This document shows positions 6,029 to 61,674 of a DNA stretch of 64,000 bases, piece by piece (position 1 is the stretch's first letter; every line of letters begins with the position of its first letter). This stretch comes from Ktedonosporobacter sp. Its GTDB lineage: Bacteria; Chloroflexota; Ktedonobacteria; Ktedonobacterales; Ktedonobacteraceae. The stretch is from contig DATGMF010000079.1 of assembly GCA_035293765.1 (NCBI GenBank), positions 1 to 64,000 on the forward strand. The letters run 5' to 3'. Position numbers and translations under genes: made by a program. The notes beneath the pieces were generated by a model. The model was not told where the DNA came from. It worked only from the letters and a program-made list of their open reading frames with translations, and did no database searches.

Positions 6029-6096
6029 CTGCCAGATAAACAAGAGGGTCCATGCCGCCCGGCATGGACCCTCTTGCTGTACTAAAGCCGGAGAAG

Positions 6097-9797: not shown

Positions 9798-9820
9798 GAT
9801 ACTTCCCTAAAAATCACACA

Positions 9821-9860
9821 AAAGGAACAGGTTGTTTGTATAGAAGCAACCTGTTCCTTT
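9821..9860. terminator. 14-bp-stem hairpin between convergent purH and a membrane-protein gene (bidirectional terminator candidate)
   Basis: aaaggaacaggttg-(12 nt loop)-caacctgttccttt; a U-rich run follows on the minus-strand transcript. Confidence 0.5.
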
Positions 9861-9886
9861 TGCTGCTGTCTTAGCGTATATGCTGC

Positions 9887-15561: not shown

Positions 15562-16134
15562 TTACATTTCGTTGGTCAAGAGAATTGCTTCCGCAACTTC
15601 GCGCATGGATTTGCGGTTATTCATGCTGGCCTTCTGAATTTTACGGAAAGCCTCATTCTCCGAAAGCCCTTGCTTTTCCATGAGAAGTCCCTTCGCGCGC
15701 TCTACCACCTTGCGCGTCTCTAGCTGTTCGTTCAGGGTTCGGGCCTTCTCTTCAAGGGAGCGGAATTCGTTGTAGCGTGCTAACGCTACCTCGATAGCGG
15801 GAGCAACCTCGCTCTCGCGTAAGGGCTTCACGATGTAGTTCACTACGCCCGCTTCTTTGGCTCGTTCGACCAGAGGCTGATCTCCAAAAGCTGTGAGCAG
15901 CAACACCGGGGCGACTTTTTCCTGGGTGAGGGTCTCGGCGGCGCTAATGCCGTCTATGTCGGGCATGCGAATATCCATGATGATCAGGTCTGGTCGTAAT
16001 TCGCGAGCCAGATTGATGGCGCTTTGCCCGTCGCCCGCCTCCCCAACGACAAGGTAGCCCTGTCTGGTCAAGACGTCCTTTAAATCCATGCGCTGAATGG
16101 CTTCGTCATCTGCAATAATAATACGTGTTGGCAT
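15562..16134 (-). CDS. ANTAR-domain response regulator (receiver + RNA-binding antiterminator domain, AmiR/NasT type)
   Basis: Receiver RIIIADDEAIQRMDLKDVL...DLIIMDIRMPDIDGISA. ANTAR domain LEEKARTLNEQLETRKVVERAKGLLMEKQGLSENEAFRKIQKASMNNRKSMREVAEAIL. Start Met at 16134 with an upstream RBS; the track ORF is 5'-extended. Confidence 0.85.
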   Translation of the reverse strand: MPTRIIIADDEAIQRMDLKDVLTRQGYLVVGEAGDGQSAINLARELRPDLIIMDIRMPDIDGISAAETLTQEKVAPVLLLTAFGDQPLVERAKEAGVVNYIVKPLRESEVAPAIEVALARYNEFRSLEEKARTLNEQLETRKVVERAKGLLMEKQGLSENEAFRKIQKASMNNRKSMREVAEAILLTNEM

Positions 16135-16260
16135 AGGTTTCACCTCAAAGCCTCTCATCTCTATCCACCCGGGTAGTACTAAATTCTCTCCCTGTACAAA
16201 GAGTATAACATACTCCATCGGGTGAGTCGATAGGGTGAGCAAAAAACCTGATCCTCACGA

Positions 16261-19120: not shown

Positions 19121-20980
19121 CTAAAAGGACGGGTTAGCGTTTTGGACCAGCGTATCAAACCCGGCCTGGAACCAGGCACCAGAGACCGGAGCGTTAGCCA
19201 TAGCCCCCGTCGGCAGGTTGTTGTTCAGCGGATCGCCGCCAAACGTCGGGTCGCACATGCGGTCGAAGCCCTTGCCCGTGGGATTCTGAGGCCCCGTTGG
19301 AATCAGCGAGCTTGAGCCATCAGATTCGCCAGGCGGCTTGATCCAGACGAACGCGGCAATATTAGGCATCGGATTCGCTTGTGGGCGAGCCCCGATGCCA
19401 CCAGGCTGGTTGCACCAGTTGCCGCGGCCAATGCGCTTGTCGATCCTGGTGGCGTTAACGAATGTGTTCAGATCCGTTGAGGTGCTCGGTCCTGTCGGGC
19501 GAGCGGAGCCTCCCCAACCGTTACGCGACGTGTCGATTAACATGCCAATGGTGCTCGGGAAGCCGGCGGCGATAAACGCATTGCGCATATCGGTGTCATA
19601 GGTGGCCTCGTCGATGTAGGTGTTCCACTGGTAGAAGGTGGCGGAGCGCACCGGCTGACCGTTGATCTGCTGATTGGCGGTCATGAACGGCTCGGTCGTC
19701 GGCGTATAGTTGGCGGTGTTGCTGATGAAGCCATCCACACTATTGACGCCGGCGGTCGTGCCCTTGATCGTGTTGCTGATCAGGGTCACAGCGGGCTGGA
19801 AGTTGCTGGTCCAGCCGAGCCAGCCGTCGTGGGCAATATCGACGTAGTTGTATACGTTCGGGATCGCGTGCAGCTTGTTCAGTGCGTATTGGACGCCCTG
19901 CACGTAAGCGCCGCTGGAGTTTGCCTCAGCGCACTTGGCGATATTCAGGTTGGTGACCAGGTTGGGCAGCGAGTCCGGCTCGATGATCGCGACGATGCGC
20001 AAATTGCTATATTTCGGCAGACTGAACGTGGCCGCAATCGGGTCGATATACTGTGATTTGTAGATCGACAGACCGTTATTGGCGACAGTTAGCTCGCCGT
20101 TAGACGCCAGGGCTGCGCAATCGCGGTCAGGCAGGTCGTAGATGACGAAAGTGATCACGACGGGCTGGCTGCCGGTGGCCTGGGACAGTGCCGCATCCAG
20201 GTGCCCTGCCAGGCTTCTGGCGTAGCCCGGACCGCCGCTGATCGCGCCCATGCTGTCGAGCCAGACGGCTGTCGAGTACTGAGCGACTTTGGCCTCCTGC
20301 GTCCCGAGTGTGCCTCCTACCGAAGCTGCGCCCGCTTTAACGTTCGCGGCCCAATCAGGGTTGATGTATCCCTGAGCGCCAACGTAAGGATTGGCAACGT
20401 GCGTGCCAGGCGGTGGCGGCGGGGTAGGTGTAGGCGTATTCGTCGGCGTCTGGGTAGGCGTGGGTGTATTCGTCTGAGTCGGAGTTGGCGTATTCGTTGG
20501 CGGCGGTGGCGTGCCATTACAGGCATTACCATTGATGGTAAAGCTTGTAGGTGCGGTATTGCTACCACTCCAGTTGGCGTTAAAGCCAGGAGGAGAGGTC
20601 ACCGTCGCGCCCGCCGCAACGGCTCCATTATAGGACAGGCTGGTGATCGTCACCGCTGCGCCATTTTGCGTAAAGTTGCCATTCCACAACTGCGTGATCG
20701 TCTGGCCGTTGGGGAACGAGAACTGCAAGCTCCAGCTCGTCCATGCTGAGGCGCTGGTATTTTGAATGGTGAAACTTGCCCCGAAGCCAGTGTTCCACTG
20801 GTTTGTTACTGTGTAGGTCACCACACAGGATGAATCTGCATGCGTAGCCGTAGCCTCTATGAACAAGCTGCTGATGAGCAAAGTCAGCACGCTCGCGAGC
20901 AAGACCAGACTTCGTAGCTTGTTTTTAGCGAGCAAACCTGGAAGTCTACTCTGTGAGATGCGACGCTTGATATCGCGCAT
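19121..20980 (-). CDS. GH6 cellulase (cellobiohydrolase/endoglucanase) with N-terminal CBM2 and Pro/Thr linker
   Basis: N-terminal CBM2 ([23 protein letters not shown]...[18 protein letters not shown]). PT-linker TPTPTQTNTPTPT. GH6 catalytic signature VIYDLPDRDCAA. RBS aaaggaggg precedes the Met at 20980; the track ORF is 5'-extended. Confidence 0.9.
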   Translation of the reverse strand: MRDIKRRISQSRLPGLLAKNKLRSLVLLASVLTLLISSLFIEATATHADSSCVVTYTVTNQWNTGFGASFTIQNTSASAWTSWSLQFSFPNGQTITQLWNGNFTQNGAAVTITSLSYNGAVAAGATVTSPPGFNANWSGSNTAPTSFTINGNACNGTPPPPTNTPTPTQTNTPTPTQTPTNTPTPTPPPPPGTHVANPYVGAQGYINPDWAANVKAGAASVGGTLGTQEAKVAQYSTAVWLDSMGAISGGPGYARSLAGHLDAALSQATGSQPVVITFVIYDLPDRDCAALASNGELTVANNGLSIYKSQYIDPIAATFSLPKYSNLRIVAIIEPDSLPNLVTNLNIAKCAEANSSGAYVQGVQYALNKLHAIPNVYNYVDIAHDGWLGWTSNFQPAVTLISNTIKGTTAGVNSVDGFISNTANYTPTTEPFMTANQQINGQPVRSATFYQWNTYIDEATYDTDMRNAFIAAGFPSTIGMLIDTSRNGWGGSARPTGPSTSTDLNTFVNATRIDKRIGRGNWCNQPGGIGARPQANPMPNIAAFVWIKPPGESDGSSSLIPTGPQNPTGKGFDRMCDPTFGGDPLNNNLPTGAMANAPVSGAWFQAGFDTLVQNANPSF

Positions 20981-21018
20981 TCTACCCTCCTTTGGGTGCA
21001 ACTAAGAAAAACGATGCT

Positions 21019-21176
21019 AGAAAGATACTTCCTCGCCGAGCGACAGAGCGGAGCTAGCTGTGCTAACAGCGTTGTCGCTCGGAATAGAAAGATACTTCCT
21101 TGCCGAGCGACACTCCCACGATGAGTCGGGGAGCTACAACGCTCAGTCGCTCGGCAAAGAAAGATCAGGAAGTACT
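21019..21176. repeat. three copies (2 direct, 1 inverted, plus a partial) of a ~27-bp element AGAAAGATACTTCC(T/C)(C/T)GCCGAGCGACA forming two GC-rich hairpins in the GH48-GH6 intergenic spacer
   Basis: Copies at 21019-21045 and 21086-21112; inverted copy at 21146-21176; partial inverted copy at 21071-21085. Arms ttgccgagcgac/gtcgctcggcaa pair across a 34-nt loop, starting 8 nt past the GH48 stop. Confidence 0.6.
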
Positions 21177-23687
21177 ACAGGACGAACCATTCAAAGTGAA
21201 TGCAGTAGGAGGTGAATTACTGCCACTCCAGTTGGCATTAAAGCCAGGAGGAGAGCTCAGCGTGGCCCCTGCCGGGATCGAGCCGTTGTAGGACAGGTTG
21301 GTAATCGTCACCTTCGCGCCATTTTGCGTAAAGTTGCCGTTCCACAGTTGCGTGATTGTCTGGCCGTTGGGGAAGCTAAATTGCAAGCTCCAGCCATTGA
21401 TCGCCGTCGTTCCGGTGTTGGTAATCGTGAAGCTGGCCCCGAAGCCGGTGTTCCACTGGTTCGTCACCGTGTAGATCACCTTACAAGTCGCGCTCGGGTT
21501 CGGAGTGGGACTTGGCGTCGGGCTCGGCGTGGGCGTAGGTGTTGATGTTTGTGTGGGCGTAGGTGTCGGTGTTGATGTCTGCGTGGGCGTGGGTGTAGGC
21601 GTCCCTCCTGATGGTGGGAACAGGATATCAACATCAGCCATTGCCATAGCGATATCGGCCTGAGCCCAGAAACGATGGTAGTTAAAGGTTGGCGCCGGAC
21701 CCCCATTCAGGTAGGCTTGCACCTTTGGAAAGGCGGGATCTGACGTATACTTGGGCCGCTCGGTAAGAAACGTCGTGGACGAATTGAGCGTCGCGCCCTG
21801 TGCATTGGTGCCTACCCAGTTCGCAGGAATAGAGACCGAGTCGTTGAACTGGTTATAGTCCTTGCGAGTTTCGGGGTTGGAGACGCCGATGCTGTCAGCA
21901 AAGTTGGCCCACATATCGGTCAGCAGTGTCTGAGCCAGGGTGCGCGACGTGGTGTCGCCAGATTTGGCGGCATAGTACAGCAGGGTCTTAGCCAGCGCAG
22001 CCGTGACGCCCACATCAGTAGTGGTGTCTACCACGGTCACATGCAGGCCCGCATTGTTCACCGAGGTCGTCCCGGCAGTCCAGTTCCCTCCCGGCTGACC
22101 GCTCCAGTTAAGGGTTGAGGGGATCGTGTAAGTGCCATTGGAGTTGACTGTCGTCTCTGACTTGGCCCAGGCGACCCATTTATCCAGGATCGACTTGGCC
22201 GTGGCATCGCCGGTCTCGAAGTAATACTCGGCAACCCGTTCCATTGACCATGCCTGGAAACCAAACCAGTTGTTGCTGGGCGGATCATGGTAGACCGGTT
22301 CGAAATCGTAGGCCATGCCGTAGAATGTGGGATCACCGGCAGGAGGCGTTCCATACTGTCCATTCCAACTATTGGTCGCGCCACCGGCGATGGCACCTTC
22401 AGCCGATTGCAGCCACTGATAGAACTGTAACATGCGTTGCAGGCTGGTGGCCCAGTCACCGGGAGCGGTTGGAGACTTGGGTTTGAGAGCGGGCACAGTG
22501 CTCAGCGCCCAGGCGGCCAGAGGGTTCTGGTAGCCCTGGTGGGCAGCGCTGGCACCGATACGCCAGGCCCAGCTACCGGCGGAAGGGAGCGCTCCGCCCC
22601 AGGCATAGTACCAGTCCAGCAAATAGGTTGAACTGTTTTTGCCGCTACCTGCCGGGCAACTCGTGCTTGTACAACCCATCGTCTTGAAGTATTTATCGTA
22701 GGTGCCATAGCGCAGATAGTCACCCATCTTCGATGCTTCGGCAACTTGAGATGCTATCGCGCTCCCCTGTCCTTGAGCAGTCGCCCAGGTATAGGCCCAA
22801 AAGGCTGCCTGGACCGTGCGCGCATCAGCATCAGGAGCATCGGTATAGCGCCACTGCTGCGAGTAGCCACCTCCTGAAGCCGAGGTGTTGAATAGCGTCA
22901 AAAAGCCGGTTCCATCGTTCCTGCCCCAGGTGAATGTCTCACATTCTGGTTGAACTACCGTCTTCCAGACCGACTCCGATGCGCCACGCTGGTACGAGTT
23001 GATGAAAGATGGCTTGGTCGTGCCATCCCCACAGTGACCGTAACCGTACCAGTTATCCGTGTCGAGCAGCCAGGGCATGCCAAAGATATCGGAAGTGCCG
23101 TAGGTCTGCTGGAGTTCGTTAGCCAGTGGATCTTGCCCCACCGACACAGATGTGGAGAGCTGGGTTGGATAATCGGTGATATTGGGTGACTCTGGCGCGT
23201 ACTGCGCGGGACTGCTGGGATTATAGCCGCTGTTGGTCGGCTGATCGGCGTGTGATGGAATCATATACTTATCCATCGTCGCCCAGGCGTTGATAAAGGG
23301 CTGCCAGTTCCCCGTCACCTGACCGTAGGTCGCCTCCAGCCAGATCCAGAAGCTGAACGTTTCTGACGTGGTTTCGTGGCCGTAGTCTGGCGCTTCTACT
23401 ATCAGGGTCTCCACTGAATGGTAGGGGATACCCAGAGGGCTAAAATACCCATTGGCCGGATTCTTGATCTCACCATAGAGAGTCAGGAAATGCTGGGTAT
23501 AGATGGATGTGGCATTTGCAGTTCGAGTAGCACTATGTGCTAGCGGAATACGTTGGCCTCCTAAAAATCCAGAGATCATCAGCGTCGTGACGATGATCCC
23601 CAGTAAAACATATTGAAAGATCCTCTTTGGAGTCACTCTAACCTCCTTTTTACACAATGCTAAACCCAGGTGGTATAGACCATCCAA
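21165..23687 (-). CDS. GH48 reducing-end cellobiohydrolase with C-terminal CBM2
   Basis: YFSPLGIPYHSVETLIVEAPDYGHETTSETFSFWIWLEATYG is the GH48 N-terminal signature (cf. Cel48/CelS). C-terminal PT-linker plus CBM2 ([25 protein letters not shown]...). Signal peptide present; TTG start. Confidence 0.9.
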   Translation of the reverse strand: MDGLYHLGLALCKKEVRVTPKRIFQYVLLGIIVTTLMISGFLGGQRIPLAHSATRTANATSIYTQHFLTLYGEIKNPANGYFSPLGIPYHSVETLIVEAPDYGHETTSETFSFWIWLEATYGQVTGNWQPFINAWATMDKYMIPSHADQPTNSGYNPSSPAQYAPESPNITDYPTQLSTSVSVGQDPLANELQQTYGTSDIFGMPWLLDTDNWYGYGHCGDGTTKPSFINSYQRGASESVWKTVVQPECETFTWGRNDGTGFLTLFNTSASGGGYSQQWRYTDAPDADARTVQAAFWAYTWATAQGQGSAIASQVAEASKMGDYLRYGTYDKYFKTMGCTSTSCPAGSGKNSSTYLLDWYYAWGGALPSAGSWAWRIGASAAHQGYQNPLAAWALSTVPALKPKSPTAPGDWATSLQRMLQFYQWLQSAEGAIAGGATNSWNGQYGTPPAGDPTFYGMAYDFEPVYHDPPSNNWFGFQAWSMERVAEYYFETGDATAKSILDKWVAWAKSETTVNSNGTYTIPSTLNWSGQPGGNWTAGTTSVNNAGLHVTVVDTTTDVGVTAALAKTLLYYAAKSGDTTSRTLAQTLLTDMWANFADSIGVSNPETRKDYNQFNDSVSIPANWVGTNAQGATLNSSTTFLTERPKYTSDPAFPKVQAYLNGGPAPTFNYHRFWAQADIAMAMADVDILFPPSGGTPTPTPTQTSTPTPTPTQTSTPTPTPSPTPSPTPNPSATCKVIYTVTNQWNTGFGASFTITNTGTTAINGWSLQFSFPNGQTITQLWNGNFTQNGAKVTITNLSYNGSIPAGATLSSPPGFNANWSGSNSPPTAFTLNGSSCSTS

Positions 23688-23837: not shown

Positions 23838-23972
23838 TAATCGTAATCGTTTACGTGAACGTTTACATTAACGGGTAAGTAATGGTAAGATACGTGATGA
23901 ACTGGTTTTGATTGTAGTGTAGCTAATCATTTTTCTGCATACAACGACATCCACTAGACACACTATGGACAG
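23838..23972. promoter_or_regulatory. ~135-bp conserved upstream module (promoter + 5'-UTR operator candidates) of the GH48 gene; paralogous copy at 35455-35590
   Basis: Aligns with 35455-35590 at the same distance (~150-285 nt) from the respective start codons. Shared blocks: gtaatcgtt(t/c)acg..aacgtttaca, ctggttttg..tgtagtgtagctaatc, cactagacacact(a/g)tggacag. In gene orientation it gives TTGTAT-17-TACACT. Confidence 0.5.
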
Positions 23973-27892: not shown

Positions 27893-27900
27893 GAGCAGAG

Positions 27901-28234
27901 GGCAAGCGCAAGGCCCCCTCCCAGGCCCATGCACCTCCCCTTGCCCCTACCGGTTCAGGGTTTACGTACGTGTGGGGAGACGACGAACGTATGGGTAGGG
28001 GCAATGCCTTGCGCTTGCCCTGCTCGCTTCCCCGACCCATGCCCATCCCTGCGACCCATCCAAACGGTTTGTACAAGGTTCCACCGCAGGCCGTAGGGGC
28101 AAGGGGACGGGCAGACGGGGATGTGGGGGCCTTGCACTTGCTTGCCCTGCTGGCTGCACGAGGGGAAACGCAGGCCGTAGGGGCAAGGGGACGGGCAGAC
28201 GGGGATGTGGGGGCCTTGCACTTGCTTGCCCTGC
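27901..28234. repeat. GC-rich intergenic repeat cluster: two 65-bp tandem direct repeats plus imperfect inverted/partial copies
   Basis: Unit gcaggccgtaggggcaaggggacgggcagacggggatgtgggggccttgcacttgcttgccctgc at 28086-28150 and 28170-28234. An inverted relative lies at 27901-27955 (gcaagcgcaaggccccc...ccccttgcccctac) and a partial one at 27993-28040. Confidence 0.65.
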
Positions 28235-28256
28235 CAGACCTGAAAGGAGATACAAC

Positions 28257-29204
28257 TTGCTTGCACGAAATGCAAATGGCAGCCACTATGCTACTCGTTT
28301 ACGCGTCCTGTTGTTACTGGCGATCTTGCTTTTCCCCCTGCTTGTAAGCTGTGGTGCAGATTCTCAGAATACTCCTCTGTCCGATAAGCCAACTATGCAA
28401 GCCGGACAGGTCTCCGCGACGCAGCCTGTGCCAACCTCCGCACCTCTGTCACCCACCTCAACTGCACAGCCATCAATCCTGCAAGGGCCGACAAATTTTC
28501 TCCTCACCCCCCCTCTCGCCTTTTCCAGTGCGAGCGGAGCTACTATGGACAATAACGGGGCGATCACTCCACTGGACGCGAATACGATAAAAACACAGAT
28601 TACTGCGGAACTGAAACGCCTCCTTTTTGTGGTAGACAGCCATAATGGCGTCAAAGTCTACAGCCCGGGAACATCACCGGTCACAGCCCAGGTAACACAC
28701 AATGCCGACGGCAGCATAGCTATCAACTATCAACAGACGGTAGACTCTGAAGCGGGGTCTGTAGCCATCACATTCGATGGGGTGCTGCTCAAGCAGCAAA
28801 TAACCGTGACCTATGATCAACAATATTCGCCTTCAATACTCATTAATGCCAATGCCAGCGAGGTAACGGTTGCCCTGACCGCGGCTGTGCGCTGGGTATC
28901 AGCAAACCAGATACCCGCCGCACCGGGGAACGGGAGCTATCGGCTCACGAGTAGCGGTGGCATTGCTCTCGCCTGGTCGGCGGGCCAGAATGCTGCCGCG
29001 TATAATGTCTATCGTCTGATCTCTGACCGCGATCAGCAGTTTCAGCTCCTGGCTACGGTAAAAGCTACCGCATATACCGACAACTCAGCCGCCGCCGCAC
29101 AATATGTCAACTCCCCAAAGGGCATCACCTACGCGGTCTTCTCCATTGGGCCAACCAATGTCGAAAATCCCGGGGGGATGGTTATAGTTGTGGCGACACA
29201 GTAG
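28257..29204 (+). CDS. hypothetical lipoprotein (lipobox LVSC) with Ser/Thr/Pro-rich linker
   Basis: MLARNANGSHYATRLRVLLLLAILLFPLLVSCGADSQN.... TTG start preceded by RBS aaaggaga; no recognisable catalytic domain. Confidence 0.55.
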   Translation: MLARNANGSHYATRLRVLLLLAILLFPLLVSCGADSQNTPLSDKPTMQAGQVSATQPVPTSAPLSPTSTAQPSILQGPTNFLLTPPLAFSSASGATMDNNGAITPLDANTIKTQITAELKRLLFVVDSHNGVKVYSPGTSPVTAQVTHNADGSIAINYQQTVDSEAGSVAITFDGVLLKQQITVTYDQQYSPSILINANASEVTVALTAAVRWVSANQIPAAPGNGSYRLTSSGGIALAWSAGQNAAAYNVYRLISDRDQQFQLLATVKATAYTDNSAAAAQYVNSPKGITYAVFSIGPTNVENPGGMVIVVATQ

Positions 29205-29247
29205 GAAGTTTAGAGGAGTCAGGCTTCTCGAAGATAGGTGCATTTGC

Positions 29248-29287
29248 GAGTCACAATCCCCACGAAGCTTCGTGGGGATTGTGACTC
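29248..29287. promoter_or_regulatory. perfect 40-bp palindrome (20-bp arms) between convergent lipoprotein and anti-sigma genes
   Basis: gagtcacaatccccacgaag|cttcgtggggattgtgactc. Neither strand has a following U-tract, so it may be a protein-binding site rather than a simple intrinsic terminator. Confidence 0.5.
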
Positions 29288-29293
29288 AAAAAC

Positions 29294-30787
29294 TCAGGAA
29301 AGCTGCCAGATGCTGACTGTGTTCTGCAAGAGCTCCTTCTGACCCAGTTCAGCAGAAATGTTGGTCGTAGTGGCAAGCATTGTGCTGTCCGGTGACCAGG
29401 CCAGTGTCGGAATAAAAGCAGGCTTACTGGTCTTGCCAAAGGTCGCAACAATCTTTTGTGCTTTCACATCCCAGATGTGGATAGCGCTGCCGCTCTCAGC
29501 CAGATATTTCCCATTTGGTGACCAGGCCAGCGAGCCAATAACCTTTGCCCAGGTATCGCTATCTTTAAAGGATGCGGTGAGTTGACCGCTTGCAACCGAC
29601 CAGATTTGCACCTCGGGAGTATCAGGTAAGCCCAGTGCAAGAAAAGCTCCATCCGGTGACCAGGCCAGTGCGCTCACGCTCACCAGATTAGCAGGCTGGT
29701 GGTAAGCAATGCTGTTGACCAGGTTACCACTCGCAATATTCCAGATCTCCACGCCGCCATTTACCGTCTGTACAGCGACATACTTCCCATCGGGGGAGAT
29801 GGGTAACATGCCAACATTCTGACCCAGAAGCTTTTTACCAGGACTCAATGTGATCGTCGTGCGAATGAGCGCTCCGGTGCTGGCATTCCATATCTGCATG
29901 AGTATAGGGCTAGCGGTGCCCGATGCTGCGAAGTTACCGGCCTTCGGCGTGAATGTCTGGACGGCAGAAATTATTGTTTCATTGGATAACCATGCTGACT
30001 GCTCAATAGCATTGTTATGCCCATTCCCTTGAAAGCTGGCGATGACACGTCCAGTGGTGGCATCGAGCACTTCTGCTTCGTATGCCCCGGTCAGCACTAA
30101 CAGGCGTTTCCCATCTGGTGACCAGGCAGCCTGCTGCGCATACGGTAATAAGTTTGCGGATTTGGTTGCACAGTTTTGTGCGGATACCGTTTTGAGATTA
30201 TAATAGGTCACGGCAAGCTGGCCGGTAGGAGACCAGTCCAGCGTGGGCTGGTGCAGAAACGGATAGCCGGTCCCGTTATCTGAGAAACTACATAATAGCA
30301 TCCCGGAGCTCAATGCTTTTTGCACTGTACCCGTCTGCGTTGTCGGCTTGTTATGAGTAGTCGATTGCCGCAACGAGGAAGAGAGCAGTACCCAGCTCAC
30401 GATGATGATCAAAACGGCTGCTACAGCCACAGCAGTGCTTAATATATTGCGGAGAGCGTGACGAGAGCGCCTCGTAGACCATGAATCGGAAGTCGAGAAT
30501 CTCGTTCCCTGCGAAGTATCTTCTTGCATTGTTTTTCCTTTTCTCAAAAACTGCTCGCCTTCAGGTGACTTGTGCCGTGCCTCCTGAAGCAGAGCAGGAT
30601 GCCCCTGACTCTGAACAAAGCGATTCCATATTCGCTCCAAAGACTGCTCGTTTTCTCGGGCATAGGTCTGGGAACTCGCATACAAAGCCTGGATCAAGCG
30701 GCGCTCGTCCCGTGAAAGATCTTGTGACCAGCGTTTAGTCTGTGCATCTATTGCCTCTGGGGTAAAGCCGTTCTCATGTTCTTTCAT
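29294..30787 (-). CDS. anti-sigma-factor-like membrane protein with extracytoplasmic WD40/PD40 beta-propeller
   Basis: 125-aa cytoplasmic N-domain, TM helix AVAVAAVLIIIVSWVLL, then repeated AWSPDG / LAWSPNGKYLA / LAWSPDSTML propeller blades. Overlaps the upstream ECF sigma gene by 4 nt. Confidence 0.7.
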   Translation of the reverse strand: MKEHENGFTPEAIDAQTKRWSQDLSRDERRLIQALYASSQTYARENEQSLERIWNRFVQSQGHPALLQEARHKSPEGEQFLRKGKTMQEDTSQGTRFSTSDSWSTRRSRHALRNILSTAVAVAAVLIIIVSWVLLSSSLRQSTTHNKPTTQTGTVQKALSSGMLLCSFSDNGTGYPFLHQPTLDWSPTGQLAVTYYNLKTVSAQNCATKSANLLPYAQQAAWSPDGKRLLVLTGAYEAEVLDATTGRVIASFQGNGHNNAIEQSAWLSNETIISAVQTFTPKAGNFAASGTASPILMQIWNASTGALIRTTITLSPGKKLLGQNVGMLPISPDGKYVAVQTVNGGVEIWNIASGNLVNSIAYHQPANLVSVSALAWSPDGAFLALGLPDTPEVQIWSVASGQLTASFKDSDTWAKVIGSLAWSPNGKYLAESGSAIHIWDVKAQKIVATFGKTSKPAFIPTLAWSPDSTMLATTTNISAELGQKELLQNTVSIWQLS

Positions 30788-33316: not shown

Positions 33317-35314
33317 TCATGAGGTGCTGCATGCAGCACCGTTGAGCGTAAACGAGGTCGGGTTGAGATTGCTGCCGCTCCAGGAGGCGTTGAAGCCAGG
33401 GGGGGAGCTCAAAGTGGCTCCCGCCGGGATCGAGCCGTTATAGGACAGGTTGCTGATCGTCACCGCCGCGCCATTTTGCGTAAAATTGCCGTTCCACAAT
33501 TGCGTAATTGTTTGCCCATTGGCGAAACTAAATTGCAAATTCCAACCGTTAATTGCCGTTGTGCCCGTATTGGTGATCGCGAAGCTCGCGCCAAAGCCGG
33601 TGTTCCACTGATTCGTCACTGTATACACTACCTTGCAGCTCACTCCTGAAGGCGTCGGGCTGGGCGTCGGACTCGGCGTATTGGTAGGTGTCGCTGTGGG
33701 CGTATTGGTGGGCGTGGGTGTGGGCGTTCCTCCCGTGCCTGGCTGTAAAACAATCGTCGTGAGCGAATACGGTGCGATACTGATGCCGCTGAGCGAGCCC
33801 TGGGCTGAGCTGATTGAGTTGCTGCTCTGACCGTAGGTGTAAAGCGTCGCGTTGGCAGCCGCGCTGTAGCCATTGAGCGAGAGAGCCACCGTGTACGTGG
33901 TACCAGGATCTTTGTTGATCAAGAGCAGTGCCAGATTGCCATTGGCCTGCTTGACCGCGTGGACCGCTACCAGGCTTTGATTAGACGAGGAGGAGACCAT
34001 CGTATCCCCCGGGCCAAACAGGTGAGAGAGCATCTGCAAGCCATAATATGGTGGGAATGGGGTATCTGCTGGCGGCTCAGTGATGCCTCCAGACGAACTG
34101 CCATTGGATAAGACGCCCATATCCCCGTAGTTGGCCGTGCCATAGAGGCTGGAGCTATTGTCCCCGCTGGTCACGATGCCATTGTGCTCCGCCCACCAGT
34201 CCACGTTGAAGACGCCGTTTTCCAGCCAGGTCATATACGCGTCGGCCAGAAAGAGGCCATTGACCAGGCTGACCGTTTGCTTACCAGGAGGGAAGCCGCC
34301 GCCGTTCGAGTTCATTTCGGTCACGGCAATGCCGACCTGGCTGGCTCTGGAGCCAAGATATTGCCCATAGAGCGAGCGCAGCGTCGCGACCTTGCCGGCA
34401 ATTTCCGCCGGACTGCCGAGCAAGCCAGCGTCGCTGTAGTTGCCGCCAGAGGCGTAATCGGTGTACCAGTGAATGTCGCCGAAGTCTATAAAGGGGCCGG
34501 CGATAGAGAGCACGGTATGATTCCAGTCCATCGTATCGCCATCATTAGTATCAACGACCCCATCAGGCCAATCGCCAGGAGTCGTCAGCACCACACCAAC
34601 CTTGATGGTCGGGTCAACAGCTTTCATGGCCTGGATGATCTGTACAGCATTCTGAGCGTAGGCGGTGGCTCCCTTCTTCGAATGGATGTCATATTCCCAG
34701 TTGGCGGTATAACTGCCATTGCCGTAAACTTCGTTGCCAACCTCCCAGTATTTGATACCGTAGGTATGGCCTGTACTGCTGCCTCCTGTATAGGTGGGAA
34801 CCGGACCATTATAGCCAGGACCCCCTTTGTTAGCGTACTGCACCCAGTTGGCGGCTTCCTGCGCTGTGCCTGAGCCATAGTTCACGGTAACGATTGGCTG
34901 CGCATCGGACCCGACCGCCTGAACAGCGCCCATGAAGGCATCAAAGGTATTGCTGGGATTGGCAAAGCTCTGGCCCGGTACCGTTGTATTCGACTGCCAA
35001 TGGTAGACATCCGAGGTCGAGCCGCCGGGATAGCGTATGGTTTTGACGTTGGCGCTCTTGAGCAAGGTGGCCGCTGTAGCATCGAGCATATTCCCATTCC
35101 AGACGGCGGTATTGATGCCCTCGCTTGCAGTGGTGAAAGTGCCAAGCGACTGGCCGGCATTGATAGTGATCTGGGCGCTGGTGGCTGCGACCGCGTGCCC
35201 CAATGGGCTAAATAGCACGATGGAGAAGATCAAAATGCAACACATTGCCGCGCAAGCAATCACTGTGTTGCTCCTGGGGGACAGATACGAACTGACGAAC
35301 AACTTCCTTGTCAT
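33317..35314 (-). CDS. clan GH-A (beta/alpha)8 glycoside hydrolase (GH5/GH30/GH44/GH51-like; family unassigned) with C-terminal CBM2
   Basis: IRYPGGSTSDVYHWQ and GIKYWEVGNEVYG (acid/base NE motif) are typical of clan GH-A. C-terminal PT-linker plus CBM2 ([25 protein letters not shown]...). Confidence 0.8.
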   Translation of the reverse strand: MTRKLFVSSYLSPRSNTVIACAAMCCILIFSIVLFSPLGHAVAATSAQITINAGQSLGTFTTASEGINTAVWNGNMLDATAATLLKSANVKTIRYPGGSTSDVYHWQSNTTVPGQSFANPSNTFDAFMGAVQAVGSDAQPIVTVNYGSGTAQEAANWVQYANKGGPGYNGPVPTYTGGSSTGHTYGIKYWEVGNEVYGNGSYTANWEYDIHSKKGATAYAQNAVQIIQAMKAVDPTIKVGVVLTTPGDWPDGVVDTNDGDTMDWNHTVLSIAGPFIDFGDIHWYTDYASGGNYSDAGLLGSPAEIAGKVATLRSLYGQYLGSRASQVGIAVTEMNSNGGGFPPGKQTVSLVNGLFLADAYMTWLENGVFNVDWWAEHNGIVTSGDNSSSLYGTANYGDMGVLSNGSSSGGITEPPADTPFPPYYGLQMLSHLFGPGDTMVSSSSNQSLVAVHAVKQANGNLALLLINKDPGTTYTVALSLNGYSAAANATLYTYGQSSNSISSAQGSLSGISIAPYSLTTIVLQPGTGGTPTPTPTNTPTATPTNTPSPTPSPTPSGVSCKVVYTVTNQWNTGFGASFAITNTGTTAINGWNLQFSFANGQTITQLWNGNFTQNGAAVTISNLSYNGSIPAGATLSSPPGFNASWSGSNLNPTSFTLNGAACSTS

Positions 35315-35454: not shown

Positions 35455-35590
35455 ATGTAATCGTTCACGGTAACGTTTACAGTGAATGATAAAAACATGT
35501 AAGGTATCGAGCGGGCTGGTTTTGTCTGTAGTGTAGCTAATCTTTCGTTAACATACAATGACAGTCACTAGACACACTGTGGACAGAATG
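35455..35590. promoter_or_regulatory. paralogous copy of the conserved cellulase upstream module (see 23838-23972)
   Basis: Same blocks in the same order and at the same distance from the GH-A start codon. In gene orientation it gives TTGTAT-17-TACACT followed by a GTAAACGTTACCGTGAACG palindrome-like element. Confidence 0.5.
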
Positions 35591-43067: not shown

Positions 43068-48265
<5,198 letters not shown>

Positions 48266-48266
<1 letters not shown>

Positions 48267-51235
48267 TGAATTTTACTGTTGGCTCGCTGGTCAAAGCACG
48301 CGGACGCGAGTGGGTCGTCCTGCCGGAATCCGATGATCAGGTGTTGGTCCTGCGCCCGCTGGGAGGGAGCGAGCAGGAAGTGACCGGCATTTATCGCGGC
48401 CTGGAGGAGGTGGAGGCGGCTTCGTTTGCCCTGCCCGATCCGCAGGCGCTGGGCGATTATCGTTCGTGTCGCCTGTTGCGAGACGCGGTCCGCCTGGGCT
48501 TTCGGACCAGCGCCGGTCCTTTCCGCTCGTTCTCCCATATCGGGGTAGAGCCGCGCCCCTACCAGTTTGTGCCGCTGCTGCTGGCCCTCAAGCTCGATCC
48601 GGTGCGCCTGTTGATCGCCGATGACGTGGGCATTGGCAAAACCGTCGAAGCCTGCCTGATTGGTCGCGAACTGCTGGATCGCGGCGAGATCGAGCGCATG
48701 GCAGTGCTCTGTCCGCCGCACCTGGCCGAACAGTGGCAGGTGGAACTGCGCGAGAAATTTCATATCGAGGCGGTGCTGGTGCTGGCGAGTACGGCGACAC
48801 AGCTTCAACGGACCTGCCGCTTTGACGAGTCGATTTTCGAGCGCTATCCCTTTGTGATCGTCTCAACCGATTTCATCAAAGCCGACCGCAGGCGCGACGA
48901 ATTCCTGCGCACCTGCCCCGAATTCGTGATCGTGGACGAGGCGCATACCTGCACGGATGCCGGCGCTGGACGCGGACGCCAGCAGCGCTACGATCTGGTG
49001 GCAAGTCTGGCTGCTCATGCTGAACGGCATCTGGTGCTGGTCACGGCCACGCCCCATAGCGGCAACGAAGCGGCCTTCCGCTCGCTACTCAGCCTGCTCA
49101 AGCCAGAGTTCGCGGCCCTGCCCGAAGATTTGACCGGCCAGCAGCATGAACGCGAGCGGCGCACGCTGGCGGCCCATTTTGTGCAGCGGCGACGCGCTGA
49201 TATCACCGCCTATCTTCACACCAATACTCCCTTCCCTGACCGCAAGGAGAGCGAGCAGCACTACACGCTCACCCCCGCGTACCGGCGGCTCTTTGAGCGC
49301 GTGTTGCACTACGCCCGCGAGACGATTAGCGATCCGGCGGATGGCAACAGGCATCGCCAGCGGGTGCGCTGGTGGTCGGCCCTGGCCTTGCTCCGCTCCC
49401 TGGCCTCCAGTCCGGCGGCGGCGGCTGCCACCCTGCGCAATCGCGCCAGCACGGCTGATACTTCCGACGAAGCTGAGGCCGACCGGATCGGACGCCATAC
49501 GGTGATGGATCTGCTGGACAACGAGTCGAGCGAAGGGGTCGATATTGTGCCGGGCAGCGATTACGAGGAGCAGCAGGCGGGCGAGTCAAGTTTGCGCAAG
49601 CGTTTGCAGGCGATGGCTCGTGAGGCCGAGGCGCTCAAAGGCGCGCAGGATGCCAAACTGTTGCAGGCGGTGAAGATCGTCAACGACCTGCTCAAAGATG
49701 GCTTTCAGCCGATCCTCTTCTGCCGCTTTATTCCCACGGCTGAATATGTGGCGCAGGAGCTGAGTACGCGCCTGCCAAAAGATATCCAGGTCGAGGCGGT
49801 GACGGGCCTGCTGCCGCCGGTGGAGCGCGAAAACCGCATCCTGCAACTGGCGGAGCAGCCCAGGCGCGTGCTTGTTTGCACCGATTGCTTGAGCGAGGGC
49901 ATCAACCTGCAAGAGCATTTTAACGCGGTCATCCACTACGATCTTTCATGGAACCCCACGCGCCATGAACAGCGCGAAGGGCGGGTGGACCGCTATGGTC
50001 AGGCCAGCCCCCAGGTGCGCGTGGTGACGTACTACGGCCACGATAATCCAGTTGATGGCATTGTGCTGGAAGTCCTGATCAAAAAGCATCATACCATTCG
50101 CACCTCGCTGGGTATCTCGGTGCCGGTACCGGTCAATAGCGAGCAGGTGCTGGAAGCGATCTTGGAGGGCGCATTGCTGCGCGGCCATAGTAGCTCGCCT
50201 TCCAGCCTGCAAATGACCCTGCCGGGCCTGGAAGACCCGCGCGAGGAGCAGTTCTGGTTGCAATGGGAGGCCAACGCGGCCCGCGAGAAGCGTTCGCGTA
50301 CCATGTTCGCCCAGGAGAGCATTAAGCCCGACGAGGTTGCGGCGGAACTGGCGGCCATGCGCTCGGCGATGGGGTCCGCTATCGACGTCGAGCACTTTAT
50401 CCGCGATGCGTTGAGCGAATACGGTGCTGCCGTCTCGCCGCTCAACAATGGTGCGCTCCAGGTGGATTACAGCACCATGCGGGGTCCGCAACCAGCACAG
50501 AGCGTACACGAGGCTCGCGGCTTGAAAGAGACCCTTCAGGCGGTACTGCGCCACGATCAGAAGGACAGGCGTTTCAGGGCGCGCTTCGAACTGCCTGTTC
50601 GTGAGGGAGAATTGTATTTGAGCCGCACGCACCCGCTGGTCGAGAGCGTGGCGGCGTACGTGATGGATGCCGCGCTCGATTCGACGACTGGCAGCGAGAG
50701 CATCGCCAAACGCTGCGGTGTGATGCGCACCAGCCAGGTTGAGCGGCGCACCACTCTGCTGCTGCTCCGCCTGCGCTACCATATCGTGACCACGCAGCGC
50801 GGACAGGCTGAACGGACGCTGCTGGCCGAGGATTGCCAGGTGCTGGCCTTCCAGGGTTCACCCATGAGTGCCCGCTGGCTTGACGATAAAACCCTGGTCG
50901 AACGCCTGCTTGAGGCGCGGCCCGATGGCAATATCTATGAAGATCAGGCGCGGCAATTTCTGTGCCAGTTGCTTGCAGAGATCGAGCATGTGCAGCCATA
51001 TCTGACCGAGATAGCCGAGCAGCGAGCGCAGGAACTCGCGACCGCGCATCGCCGTGTGCGCCAGGCCGCCCAGGCGCGCGGCCTGCAATACCGCGTCGAG
51101 CCGCAAATGCCGGTTGACATCCTGGGCATCTATCTCTATTTGCCCAAGATCGCGTCAACCCCACAAGGCAAGAGCGAAGCACCGTCGTATCGACCTGATT
51201 ATGAGCATGAACGACCAAGATCGGCAAGGTCGTAG
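48266..51235 (+). CDS. SNF2-family helicase/ATPase (DrmD-like), translationally coupled to upstream gene (TGATG overlap)
   Basis: SNF2_N: RPYQFVPLLLALKLDPVRLLIADDVGIGKTVEA; DEAH box FVIVDEAHTC. Helicase_C: VLVCTDCLSEGINLQEHFNAVIHYDLSWNPTRHEQREGRVDRYGQ. Confidence 0.85.
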
Positions 51236-51389
51236 GGACCCGATTATATCGCGTCCGATTTATCGCCCGTCCCCGTTGGCGACCGGTCGGCAGCGAGCAG
51301 AAGTCGAAAAAGGAACGGGTTCGACAAGGGGAAAGGAGAGGCGATGGCGAGGGGGAGCGCTGAAGCGGACGCGATATAATCGGGTCGCT
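51236..51389. repeat. intergenic element with 27-bp near-perfect inverted repeats flanking ~108 nt (MITE-like or large RNA stem) between SNF2 and methyltransferase genes
   Basis: cgtagGgacccgattatatcgcgtccg (51232-51258) vs the reverse complement of 51367-51393 (cgtagCgacccgattatatcgcgtccg); 1 mismatch. Confidence 0.6.
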
Positions 51390-51469
51390 ACGAAGGCCCA
51401 AGGTCGCGTCGTTCCCAACCCATTGGCGTTCATCATCTTACATCACAACCTGGAAAAGGAAAAGTAGTC

Positions 51470-61481: not shown

Positions 61482-61674
61482 AAGTTGGAGTTTAGAGTGG
61501 GTCGTATCGTTACCCTTTTTCCGACCCGCTCTAAACTCCAATAAAAGAAAAAGTGTAGGACGAGAAATTGGCTGTAAAAAGACGCCGTCAAAGATAGTTA
61601 GTTAACGCCCTGGCAGACAGCCCTGCGCTATCATCATAGTAACACCGTGTGCCGATATATAAGGAGTTGATAGC

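What the first reader, a model, noticed from the sequence alone, without database searches (positions are those of the whole stretch)
21019..21176. Tandem and inverted 27-bp repeats forming paired GC-rich hairpins in the GH48-GH6 spacer
AGAAAGATACTTCC(T/C)(C/T)GCCGAGCGACA occurs twice directly (21019, 21086) and once inverted (21146-21176, overlapping the GH48 stop), plus a partial inverted copy (21071-21085). This gives two stem-loops with 12-bp GCCGAGCGAC stems. The position fits a GH48 terminator, but the repetition and the conserved AGAAAGATACTTCC flank go beyond what a terminator needs. It could be a REP/BIME-like element, a processing site between two co-transcribed cellulase genes, or a protein-binding array.
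Basis: seen in the sequence. Interest (0 to 1): 0.5.

Follow-up and report, generated by a model that had tools for sequence, protein, structure and literature searches.

The report
Amplified hairpin between two cellulase genes
The repeats are real: a 67-base hairpin-forming module sits between two co-oriented cellulase genes of a soil Ktedonobacteria bacterium and has been tandemly copied (0, 1, 2 or 4 hairpins in close relatives), most likely a leaky terminator or mRNA-stabilising stem-loop and not a genome-wide repeat family, so it is tidy but fairly ordinary.

Summary
Both genes lie on the minus strand: GH48+CBM2 (23636→21165) and GH6+CBM2 (20980→19121). The 184-nt spacer RNA holds two strong hairpins that share a 10-bp GC core; HP1 has a 21-bp stem that includes the GH48 stop codon.

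Relatives explain the "excess" conservation. A more distant Ktedonosporobacter has the same HTH–GH48–GH6 layout with a 46-nt spacer and no hairpin. A sister species (~93% nt) has one hairpin flanked by CTTTCT direct repeats. The window has two. Thirteen assemblies, ≥99.97% identical to the window wherever compared, have four (period 67 nt, 99% identical). The AGAAAGATACTTCC "flank" is therefore the lower stem plus the U-rich tail of a recently duplicated unit, not an extra motif.

I found no copy elsewhere in the window or in 1.3 Mb of fetched loci, so the REP/BIME reading is not supported. The whole source genome could not be scanned.

The spacer has no promoter-like site and lacks the cellulase operator motif. 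Nearly all Ktedonobacteria GH48 genes are followed by an unrelated strong hairpin.

Best reading (about 0.55): an intercistronic terminator or stabiliser stem-loop, amplified by slippage, that may tune the GH48:GH6 ratio. This function is inferred, not shown. It is a new member of a known kind, of modest interest.

The parts
21165..23636 (-). GH48 + C-terminal CBM2 exoglucanase gene (GTG 23636, stop TGA 21167-21165)
   Evidence: Pfam PF02011 E=3e-292 and PF00553. The start was chosen after an AAAGGAGG Shine-Dalgarno. The identical 823-aa protein is called on 16 public contigs.
20981..21164 (-). GH48-GH6 intercistronic spacer (184 nt) holding the whole repeat/hairpin array
   Evidence: It aligns as a nested 0/1/2/4-hairpin series with relatives.
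21146..21166 (-). Hairpin 1, 5' arm (RNA: GAUCUUUCUUUGCCGAGCGAC). Its first two bases are the last two of the GH48 stop codon.
   Evidence: (I2)
21112..21145 (-). Hairpin 1 loop (34 nt) with its own small sub-hairpin. It has diverged from the loops of the other units.
21091..21111 (-). Hairpin 1, 3' arm (GUCGCUCGGCAAGGAAGUAUC). It is followed by the U-rich UUUCUAUU (21090-21083).
   Evidence: I2, D4; -43.3 kcal/mol, z = -6.2
21073..21082 (-). Hairpin 2, 5' arm core (CCGAGCGACA). An imperfect extension runs up to about 21095.
   Evidence: (I8, I3)
21046..21072 (-). Hairpin 2 loop (27 nt). It matches the single hairpin's loop in the sister species.
21024..21045 (-). Hairpin 2, 3' arm (UGUCGCUCGG core 21045-21036 plus CGAGGAAGUAUC extension)
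   Evidence: I8, D4; -32.8 kcal/mol, z = -4.3
21019..21085 (-). One full 67-nt repeat unit as defined by the tandem period: about 1.4 copies in the window, 3.4 copies in near-identical assemblies
   Evidence: TRF period 67, 99% matches in L001. 28-nt direct repeat with 67-nt spacing in the window (D4).
20993..21023 (-). U-rich tail and GH6 leader (UUUCUAGCAUCGUUUUUCUUAGUUGCACCCA), conserved in the 0-, 1-, 2- and 4-hairpin relatives
   Evidence: alignment
20985..20992 (-). Shine-Dalgarno AAGGAGGG of GH6, 4 nt before the ATG
   Evidence: read directly from the sequence
19121..20980 (-). GH6 + N-terminal CBM2 cellobiohydrolase gene (ATG 20980)
   Evidence: Pfam PF01341 E=5e-97 and PF00553. The identical 619-aa protein is called on 20 public contigs.
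23842..23867 (.). Context only: a dual palindromic operator-like site upstream of GH48, shared with another cellulase promoter and absent from the spacer

Best explanation
The element acts at the RNA level. It is a long GC-cored stem-loop placed directly after the GH48 stop codon, inside a GH48-GH6 two-gene operon of a Ktedonosporobacter-like bacterium (Chloroflexota, Ktedonobacteria). It has been tandemly amplified. SHOWN: the hairpin module is lineage-specific. It is absent from an outgroup whose spacer is 46 nt, present once in the sister species flanked by CTTTCT direct repeats, twice in the window, and four times in near-identical assemblies. The 67-nt period equals the hairpin (61 nt) plus one CTTTCT copy, which is what slipped-strand or unequal recombination between those direct repeats would give. 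INFERRED: each unit works as a leaky (internal) intrinsic terminator and/or a barrier to 3'-to-5' exonucleases. GH48 transcripts would then end, or be protected, at the hairpins while a fraction of polymerases read through into GH6. That sets GH48 mRNA above GH6 mRNA, and more units would give stronger attenuation or stabilisation. The 21-bp stem of hairpin 1 is also long enough to be an RNase III-type processing site. The 'conserved AGAAAGATACTTCC flank' is simply the lower stem (GGAAG pairs with CUUUC) plus the U-rich tail of the duplicated unit.
For: Structure: z = -6.0 for the spacer, and -6.2 and -4.3 for the individual hairpins. The four-unit allele has z = -9.6. Operon context: the genes are co-oriented. 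The outgroup L097-L099 has HTH-GH48-46 nt-GH6 with no hairpin, so there is no room there for a terminator plus a promoter. No sigma-70-like site lies on the minus strand of the spacer. The dual operator found upstream of GH48 (23842-23867) and of the CBM2 gene at 35456-35481 is absent from the spacer. The position is a recurrent feature: 19 of 20 GH48 loci from distinct Ktedonobacteria lineages carry a strong hairpin of unrelated sequence within about 100 nt of the stop, and several have canonical T-runs. Related GH48-GH5-GH6 clusters also have intercistronic hairpins. Tails are U-rich: UUUCUAUU after hairpin 1, and UUUCUAGCAUCGUUUUUCUU after the last hairpin. Stems are kept while loops drift: the 17-nt arms are identical between the sister species and window hairpin 1, but the loops differ strongly. 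Amplification series 0/1/2/4 and TRF period 67 at 99% identity. The window and the 4-unit contigs differ by only 1-4 SNPs over 22 kb. Precedent: in Ruminiclostridium cellulolyticum, intergenic stem-loops set transcript ratios in the cip-cel cellulase operon (PMC4423207, PMC10311766), and internal terminators with long GC stems and U-poor tails set ratios in ABC-importer operons (PMC9045158).
Against: No transcript data exist, so termination, stabilisation and processing are all inferred. The hairpins are not canonical intrinsic terminators. Their loops are 27-34 nt, the tail is interrupted, and the consensus scan did not call them. The outgroup does without the hairpin, so it is dispensable, and both the insertion and its amplification could be neutral. 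The array can fold in many registers (MFE frequency 0.0004-0.005), so the sequential-hairpin picture assumes co-transcriptional folding. The 2-copy state is seen only in the window, while 13 other assemblies show 4 copies. An assembly collapse cannot be excluded, although the A/G marker site should make every k-mer of 79 nt or more unique.
Confidence: 0.55

Rival explanations
1. A selfish or neutral palindromic insertion (MITE/REP-like). A roughly 61-nt element with 17-nt terminal inverted repeats inserted into the operon spacer, made a CTTTCT target-site duplication, and then expanded locally. Any effect on RNA is incidental.
For: The module is an insertion relative to the outgroup spacer (TGAT|CTTATTCAGGGT|CG against TGAT|CTTTCT...67 nt...|AGCATCG). 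It is flanked by a 6-nt direct repeat and has near-perfect inverted termini (CTTTCTTTGCCGAGCGAC / GTCGCTCGGCAAGGAAG). A second local inverted-plus-tandem repeat lies behind the GH9 gene, so such structures recur in this genome.
Against: There is no second copy in the 64-kb window at up to 3 mismatches or in 1.3 Mb of fetched loci. The exact 25-mer gave 0 hits in 185,579 species genomes and in the metagenome collection. The gapped-arm pattern hit only the orthologous locus plus two chance matches in a high-GC ABC-transporter CDS. Caveat: the scanned collections evidently lack the contigs nearest to the window, so the source genome itself was never scanned. Deletion in the outgroup instead of insertion in this lineage is not excluded.
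Confidence: 0.2
2. A DNA-level protein-binding array. The repeated GCCGAGCGAC half-sites are operators for a regulator that controls a GH6-specific promoter.
For: Four half-sites in alternating orientation lie just upstream of GH6. An XRE-type HTH regulator gene is next to the cluster.
Against: The spacer has no promoter-like site on the minus strand. The half-site is not enriched in the window and is absent from the other cellulase promoters. Those promoters instead share a different dual operator, TGTAAACGTTCACG/TAAACGATTACG. The outgroup has the same HTH-GH48-GH6 cluster and none of these sites. Half-site spacing of 27-34 bp and a 67-bp period is unusual for an operator.
Confidence: 0.07
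3. A shift-register attenuator. Arm 1 overlaps the GH48 stop codon, so a terminating ribosome masks it. Arms 2:3 (and 4:5, 6:7) then pair into hairpins that lack U-tails, the last arm stays single, and polymerase reads into GH6. Without translation, arms 1:2, 3:4 and so on form U-tailed hairpins and transcription stops.
For: All arms are interchangeable, and the alternative 2:3 hairpin is stable (-22 kcal/mol, z = -3.9). The MFE of the whole spacer actually uses the outer-plus-inner register. The stop codon lies inside arm 1. Only the in-register hairpins are followed by UUUCU tails.
Against: The ancestral single-hairpin state has no alternative pairing, so this could only be a by-product of the duplication. 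There is no leader peptide or sensing logic. Transcription-translation coupling in Ktedonobacteria is unstudied. No data are available.
Confidence: 0.07
4. The copy-number difference between the window (2 hairpins) and the other assemblies (4) is an assembly artefact, and there is no real polymorphism within the species.
For: Only the window shows 2 copies. All 13 other contigs with the identical flanking proteins show 4. One Logan contig breaks inside the array (L096), which shows that assemblers struggle here.
Against: The A/G marker (GGCAAGG or GGCGAGG) makes the units distinguishable, and the window's A-G junctions are not sub-paths of A-A-G-G for long k-mers (my own reasoning, not a computation). 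The between-species differences (0 and 1 copy) are each seen in two or three independent assemblies and do not depend on this point.
Confidence: 0.3

Closest known systems
Intercistronic stem-loops of selective RNA processing and stabilisation (SRPS) operons, e.g. the cip-cel cellulosome operon of Ruminiclostridium cellulolyticum (PMC4423207, PMC10311766)
   Same: A stable GC-rich stem-loop sits at the 3' end of an upstream cellulase cistron (cip-cel also contains a GH48 gene, by my own knowledge), inside an operon of synergistic cellulases. The proposed role is to set transcript ratios.
   Different: A different phylum, free enzymes with CBM2 instead of a cellulosome, no sequence relationship, and no processing sites mapped here. 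The present element is a recently amplified tandem array that is absent from a close relative.
Internal (leaky) intrinsic terminators inside operons, e.g. downstream of SBP genes of ABC importers in cellulolytic Clostridia (PMC9045158)
   Same: Long GC-rich stems and tails poorer in U than canonical terminators. They lie between co-transcribed genes, and the upstream gene is expected to be the more abundant.
   Different: The loops here are 27-34 nt and the stem reaches 21 bp. The units are repeated 2-4 times. Termination was not measured.
REP/BIME elements of enterobacteria and pseudomonads
   Same: Palindromic units in alternating orientation, separated by two kinds of linker ('loop' 27-34 nt, 'tail' 17-19 nt). 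They are intercistronic or 3' of genes, and the unit number varies between strains. REPs are known to stabilise upstream mRNA (my own knowledge: malE-malF).
   Different: REP/BIME families are defined by tens to hundreds of dispersed copies and by association with a RAYT transposase. No second locus was found here.
MIRU-type VNTRs of Mycobacterium tuberculosis (my own knowledge)
   Same: Tandem repeats of 40-100 bp inside intercistronic regions of operons, with strain-variable copy number.
   Different: MIRUs occur at about 40 loci and carry short ORFs for translational coupling. This unit is 67 nt (not a multiple of 3), forms a hairpin and is known from one locus.
Canonical intrinsic terminators after GH48 in other Ktedonobacteria (Thermogemmatispora, Dictyobacter)
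   Same: The same position just after the CBM2 or GH48 stop codon, with a GC-rich perfect stem.
   Different: Those have 4-6-nt loops and T5-T6 runs, and they end the transcription unit. This one has a large loop and an interrupted U-tail, and the next cellulase gene's Shine-Dalgarno follows 31 nt after the last stem.

Membership tests
Intrinsic (Rho-independent) terminator | GC-rich stem of at least 5 bp | tested here: met
   10-bp perfect GC-rich core in both hairpins; 21 bp in hairpin 1
Intrinsic (Rho-independent) terminator | Short loop (about 3-8 nt) | tested here: not met
   Loops are 34 and 27 nt. The consensus scan found no terminator-like site in the spacer.
Intrinsic (Rho-independent) terminator | U-tract directly after the stem | tested here: inconclusive
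   UUUCUAUU (6 of 8 U) follows the extended stem of hairpin 1. UUUCUAGC, then CGUUUUUCUU, follows the last hairpin. The tails are interrupted and not canonical.
Intrinsic (Rho-independent) terminator | Transcript 3' ends map to the tail | not testable with these tools
   No transcript data are available
SRPS / operon-internal stabiliser stem-loop | Lies between co-transcribed cistrons | tested here: inconclusive
   Same strand; 46-nt spacer in the outgroup; no promoter-like site or operator in the spacer. Co-transcription is inferred, not shown.
SRPS / operon-internal stabiliser stem-loop | Thermodynamically stable stem-loop at the 3' end of the upstream cistron | tested here: met
   -43.3 and -32.8 kcal/mol, z = -6.2 and -4.3
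SRPS / operon-internal stabiliser stem-loop | Mapped processing site and skewed transcript abundance | not testable with these tools
   Needs 5'P-seq, Northern blots or RNA-seq
REP/BIME | Dispersed in tens to hundreds of extragenic copies per genome | tested here: not met
   Only this spacer in the 64-kb window and in 1.3 Mb of loci. Collection scans found only the orthologous locus. The complete source genome could not be scanned, and the scanned collections lack the contigs nearest to the window.
REP/BIME | Imperfect palindromes in alternating orientation with characteristic linkers, extragenic | tested here: met
   Arms alternate, with loop and tail linkers
REP/BIME | Associated RAYT (Y1 transposase) gene | not tested
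   Window ORFs were not screened systematically for PF01797
MITE | Terminal inverted repeats plus a target-site duplication | tested here: inconclusive
   17-nt inverted termini and a flanking CTTTCT direct repeat in the single-copy state. The 'empty' site in the outgroup has diverged, so the duplication cannot be proven.
MITE | Multiple copies at unrelated loci | tested here: not met
   Same evidence and same caveats as for REP/BIME
MIRU-like intercistronic VNTR | Tandem 40-100-bp unit with copy number varying among close relatives | tested here: met
   Period 67. 0/1/2/4 hairpins. The 2-against-4 difference lies between sequences at least 99.97% identical.
MIRU-like intercistronic VNTR | Many loci; unit carries an in-frame short ORF for translational coupling | tested here: not met
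   Single locus. 67 is not a multiple of 3, and only chance ORFs of 21-63 aa on the antisense strand overlap the spacer.
Known structured RNA family (Rfam), including riboswitches and ANTAR-type dual hairpins | Match to a curated covariance model | tested here: not met
   Only sub-threshold chance hits to miRNA precursor models (20.8 bits against a gathering score of 62)

The most novel reading that the evidence does not exclude
The hairpin array is a selected, copy-number-variable 'rheostat' for the ratio of the two synergistic exo-cellulases (GH48 and GH6). Each added 67-nt unit would lower read-through or raise GH48 mRNA stability. Because arm 1 overlaps the GH48 stop codon and all arms are interchangeable, the array could also act as a register-shifting attenuator that couples GH6 transcription to ongoing GH48 translation. 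The natural 0/1/2/4 allelic series would then be an evolutionary tuning experiment caught in progress.
Probability: 0.1. Interest if true: 0.6.

Novelty: new member of a known kind. Interest (0 to 1): 0.3.

Why it matters
If the hairpins do set the GH48:GH6 transcript ratio, this locus offers a ready-made natural allelic series (0, 1, 2 and 4 units in otherwise near-identical operons). That series could be used to measure how the number of stem-loops translates into stoichiometry of two synergistic cellobiohydrolases. It would do so in Ktedonobacteria, a phylum whose transcription termination and mRNA decay are essentially unstudied. It would also extend to aerobic soil Chloroflexota the 'stem-loops control cellulase stoichiometry' principle so far shown in Clostridia. 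If the amplification is neutral, the locus is only a strain-typing VNTR and a caution for assemblers.

Tried and rejected
1. Rfam at E<=10 on 20500-21700: only chance miRNA-precursor hits.

2. Consensus promoter/terminator scan: nothing in the spacer. The terminator rule requires loops of 3-8 nt, so the negative is partly a matter of definition.

3. Collection scans for dispersal.
- The exact 25-mer gave 0 hits in genome contigs and in metagenome contigs.
- The gapped-arm pattern found the sister-species locus L086 plus two chance hits in an actinobacterial ABC-ATPase CDS.
- These negatives carry limited weight. JGI contigs that demonstrably hold the 25-mer four times (L090, L092, L094) were not returned, so the scanned collections do not include the contigs nearest to the window.

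4. Small-ORF or coding repeat: 67 is not divisible by 3, and only short antisense chance ORFs are present. Rejected.

5. CRISPR-like array: the 'spacers' between arms are identical from unit to unit. Rejected.

6. ANTAR target. An ANTAR response regulator lies four genes downstream, but the loops are 27-34 nt, not hexaloops, and there is no Rfam hit. Rejected.

7. Operator for the cellulase regulon: the real shared operator-like motif is different and lies elsewhere.

8. Covariation analysis: not attempted. Only two lineages carry the hairpin and their arms are identical, so it would carry no information.

9. A literature search for Ktedonobacter cellulase regulation found nothing relevant.

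10. TRF on the window found no array, because 1.4 copies fall below its threshold. The period only became visible in L001.

Full report
**1. What is in the sequence**

The window region 19121-23636 carries two genes on the minus strand. One encodes a GH48 catalytic domain with a C-terminal CBM2 (GTG 23636, stop TGA at 21167-21165). The other encodes a CBM2 with a GH6 catalytic domain (ATG 20980, stop at 19121). The spacer between them is 184 nt (21164-20981).

As a 28-nt direct repeat it has 67-nt spacing (D4). The inverted copy is at 21146-21166 and overlaps the stop codon. The partial inverted copy is at 21073-21089 (I2, I3, I8).

Read as RNA on the minus strand, the spacer forms two hairpins.
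- **Hairpin 1:** GAUCUUUCUUUGCCGAGCGAC, a 34-nt loop, then GUCGCUCGGCAAGGAAGUAUC. The stem is 21 bp with one mismatch (-43.3 kcal/mol, z = -6.2). UUUCUAUU follows it.
- **Hairpin 2:** a 10-bp perfect core with an imperfect extension and a 27-nt loop (-32.8 kcal/mol, z = -4.3). UUUCUAGCAUCGUUUUUCUUAG follows it, then the GH6 Shine-Dalgarno AAGGAGGG and the ATG.

The whole spacer folds at -91 kcal/mol (z = -6.0), but in a different register, outer arms plus inner arms, because all arms are interchangeable.

**2. Where it comes from**

The identical GH48 and GH6 proteins are found on 16 and 20 public contigs, from NCBI soil MAGs and JGI metagenomes. NCBI names the GH6 protein 'Ktedonosporobacter sp.'. 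The nearest genomes are Ktedonobacteraceae (taxonomy).

Across 22 kb the window is at least 99.97% identical to the six longest of those contigs, L001-L006 (1-4 SNPs). The one consistent exception is the spacer, which is 318 nt there: exactly 184 + 2 x 67. Tandem Repeats Finder gives period 67, 3.4 copies and 99% matches. All 13 contigs read across the spacer carry this four-hairpin form. One Logan contig breaks inside the array.

An A/G marker (GGCAAGG or GGCGAGG) labels the units: A-G in the window, A-A-G-G in the others.

**3. The evolutionary series**

- **Sister species** (L007, about 93% nt; the same sequence in metagenome contig L086). It has one hairpin at the same place: TGAT[CTTTCT]TTGCCGAGCGAC, a 29-nt loop, GTCGCTCGGCAAGGAAGACC[CTTTCT]AGCATCG, and then the same leader, SD and ATG.
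- **Next outgroup** (L097-L099, GCA_035310105.1 and a JGI contig; GH6 87% aa). It has the same HTH-GH48-GH6 synteny but a 46-nt spacer with no hairpin at all: TGATCTTATTCAGGGTCGTTTTCCTTAGTTGCACCCGAAGGAGGGTAGAATG.

A four-way alignment shows a clean nested 0/1/2/4 series.

The single hairpin (61 nt) plus one CTTTCT copy makes 67 nt, which is exactly the tandem period. The array is therefore what slippage or unequal recombination between the flanking CTTTCT direct repeats would produce.

AGAAAGATACTTCC is conserved because the whole unit was copied recently. It also corresponds to the lower stem (GGAAG pairs with CUUUC) and the U-rich tail, not to an additional motif.

**4. Is it a dispersed repeat?**

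No other copy of the 27-mer, the 14-mer flank, the 17-nt arm or the gapped arm pair exists in the 64-kb window or in 1.3 Mb of fetched loci. The exact 25-mer gave no hit in the species-genome or metagenome collections. The gapped arm pattern hit only the orthologous sister locus, plus two chance matches inside a high-GC ABC-transporter gene.

An important caveat applies. JGI contigs that contain the 25-mer four times were not returned by those scans. The scanned collections therefore lack the sequences nearest to the window, and the source genome as a whole was not searched.

A high-density REP family is unlikely, since about 64 kb holds no second copy. A low-copy MITE is not excluded.

**5. 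Functional context**

- GH48 and GH6 are operon-like. They are co-oriented, and the outgroup spacer is only 46 nt.
- The spacer has no sigma-70-like site on the minus strand.
- The two cellulase promoter regions in the window share a dual operator-like motif: TGTAAACGTTCACG/TAAACGATTACG at 23842-23867, and a close copy at 35456-35481. They also share an upstream block. The spacer has neither.
- I examined 20 GH48 loci from distinct Ktedonobacteria lineages. Nineteen carry a strong hairpin of unrelated sequence within about 100 nt of the stop. Several are canonical terminators with T5-T6 runs (Thermogemmatispora, Dictyobacter). The hairpin-free outgroup L097 is the exception.
- Related GH48-GH5-GH6 clusters also have intercistronic hairpins, including two different ones in tandem before GH6 in L101.
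- Other genes in the window end with 11-14-bp hairpins and weak U-tails.
- Between the sister species and window hairpin 1, the 17-nt arms are identical while the loops differ strongly. This is weak evidence that the stem is what matters.

**6. Mechanism I commit to (confidence about 0.55)**

The element is an intercistronic RNA stem-loop module after GH48. It acts as a leaky internal terminator and/or a 3'-exonuclease barrier, and possibly as an RNase III-type processing site, given the 21-bp stem. It was amplified by slippage. The result would be that GH48 mRNA exceeds GH6 mRNA, with unit number modulating the ratio.

- **Shown:** the structure, the position, the operon-like context, the lineage-specific gain and amplification, and the absence of other copies in what could be searched.
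- **Inferred:** co-transcription, termination or stabilisation, and any dosage effect.

The closest experimentally characterised analogues come from Ruminiclostridium cellulolyticum. In the cip-cel cellulase operon, intergenic stem-loops set transcript ratios (PMC4423207, PMC10311766). In its ABC-importer operons, internal terminators with long GC stems and U-poor tails do the same (PMC9045158).

**7. Rivals**

- A neutral MITE/REP-like insertion that later expanded (0.2). This concerns origin and is compatible with an RNA-level effect.
- A DNA operator array (0.07). It is contradicted by the missing promoter, by a different regulon motif, and by its absence from the outgroup.
- A ribosome-coupled register-shifting attenuator (0.07). 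It is attractive because arm 1 contains the stop codon and only in-register hairpins have U-tails, but it has no ancestral basis.
- Separately, the 2-against-4 difference may be an assembly artefact (0.3). This does not affect the 0/1/multi-copy series between species.

**8. Comparison and novelty**

The element works like an SRPS or internal-terminator stem-loop. Formally it resembles a BIME (alternating palindromes) and a MIRU-type intercistronic VNTR.

It fails the dispersal criterion of REP/BIME, MITE and MIRU in everything that could be tested. It fails the short-loop criterion of canonical intrinsic terminators. It matches no Rfam family.

I file it as a new member of a known kind: an operon-internal hairpin that happens to be a young tandem array. 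Interest is modest (0.3). Its main value is the natural 0/1/2/4 allelic series, which could be used to test how stem-loop dosage sets the stoichiometry of two synergistic cellobiohydrolases in an unstudied phylum.

Noticed in passing
window 27893-28250 (just after the GH9 stop at 27892): A second local repeat structure behind a cellulase gene. Perfect 16-bp arms at 27899-27914 and 28006-28021 enclose a 91-nt loop, starting 6 nt after the GH9 stop. There is also an 84-nt-period tandem duplication (66 nt, 100% identical: 28085-28150 and 28169-28234), plus inverted GTAGGGGCAAGGGGA motifs. By blast coordinates the sister species L007 appears to have only one copy of the duplicated unit. This suggests that local amplification of structured 3' flanks recurs in this genome.
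   Followed up: partly
window 23842-23867 and 35456-35481: A dual 14-bp palindromic operator-like site (TGTAAACGTTCACG + TAAACGATTACG). It lies in the divergent HTH/GH9-GH48 promoter region and again upstream of the CBM2-protein gene 33317-35314(-). Both follow a shared block GATTAGCTACACTACA..CAAAACCAG. There are 19 matches at <=3 mismatches against 4.4 expected. This is probably the cis-element of the cellulase regulon; the regulator is unknown.
   Followed up: partly
window 43068-55468: A high-GC island (0.61-0.63 against about 0.54 elsewhere). It encodes a 1732-aa DEAD helicase with an MrfA Zn-binding (DUF1998) domain, a 1022-aa SNF2 helicase and a 1332-aa Eco57I/N6-adenine methylase. This gene set resembles a DISARM-type anti-phage island and was probably acquired horizontally.
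   Followed up: partly
window 51230-51275 / 51348-51393: A 46-nt inverted repeat (83% complementary, 72 nt apart) lies between the SNF2 helicase and methylase genes of the high-GC island. It is the longest inverted repeat in the window.
   Followed up: no
window 15562-16242 (-); L001/L002 17637-18209: A response regulator with an ANTAR RNA-binding output domain lies four genes downstream of GH6. Its called length differs between near-identical MAGs (190 against 134 aa), and L002 has a small indel there relative to the window. No ANTAR-type dual hexaloop target was seen in the GH48-GH6 spacer.
   Followed up: no
L100 (contig JBAIHU010000764.1 of the same MAG as L001) and L101: A second, paralogous cellulase cluster GH48-GH5-GH6 (GH6 78% identical) occurs in the same MAG. 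Its GH5-GH6 spacer is 37 nt and also contains GTATCTTTC. L101 has two different hairpins in tandem in its GH5-GH6 spacer. Either the genome has two exo-cellulase operons or the MAG mixes two species.
   Followed up: partly
window 20415-20497, 21526-21599, 33661-33727: 24-30-nt tandem repeats reported by TRF lie inside the cellulase genes. They appear to encode the Pro/Thr-rich linkers between the CBM2 and catalytic domains, so they are ordinary.
   Followed up: no
search tools: The metagenome contigs pattern scans did not return JGI contigs (Ga0070738_10000535, Ga0070740_10000713, Ga0400691_000013) that demonstrably contain the searched 25-mer four times. Negative collection scans for sequences close to the window should therefore not be read as absence.
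   Followed up: yes
window 29243-29292, 9819-9862, 2291-2342, 6041-6076, 61485-61541: Near-perfect palindromes of 17-25 nt with loops of 0-17 nt. For example, the one at 29243-29292 lies between the convergent ORFs 28257-29204(+) and 29294-30787(-). They are probably ordinary, partly bidirectional, terminators.
   Followed up: no
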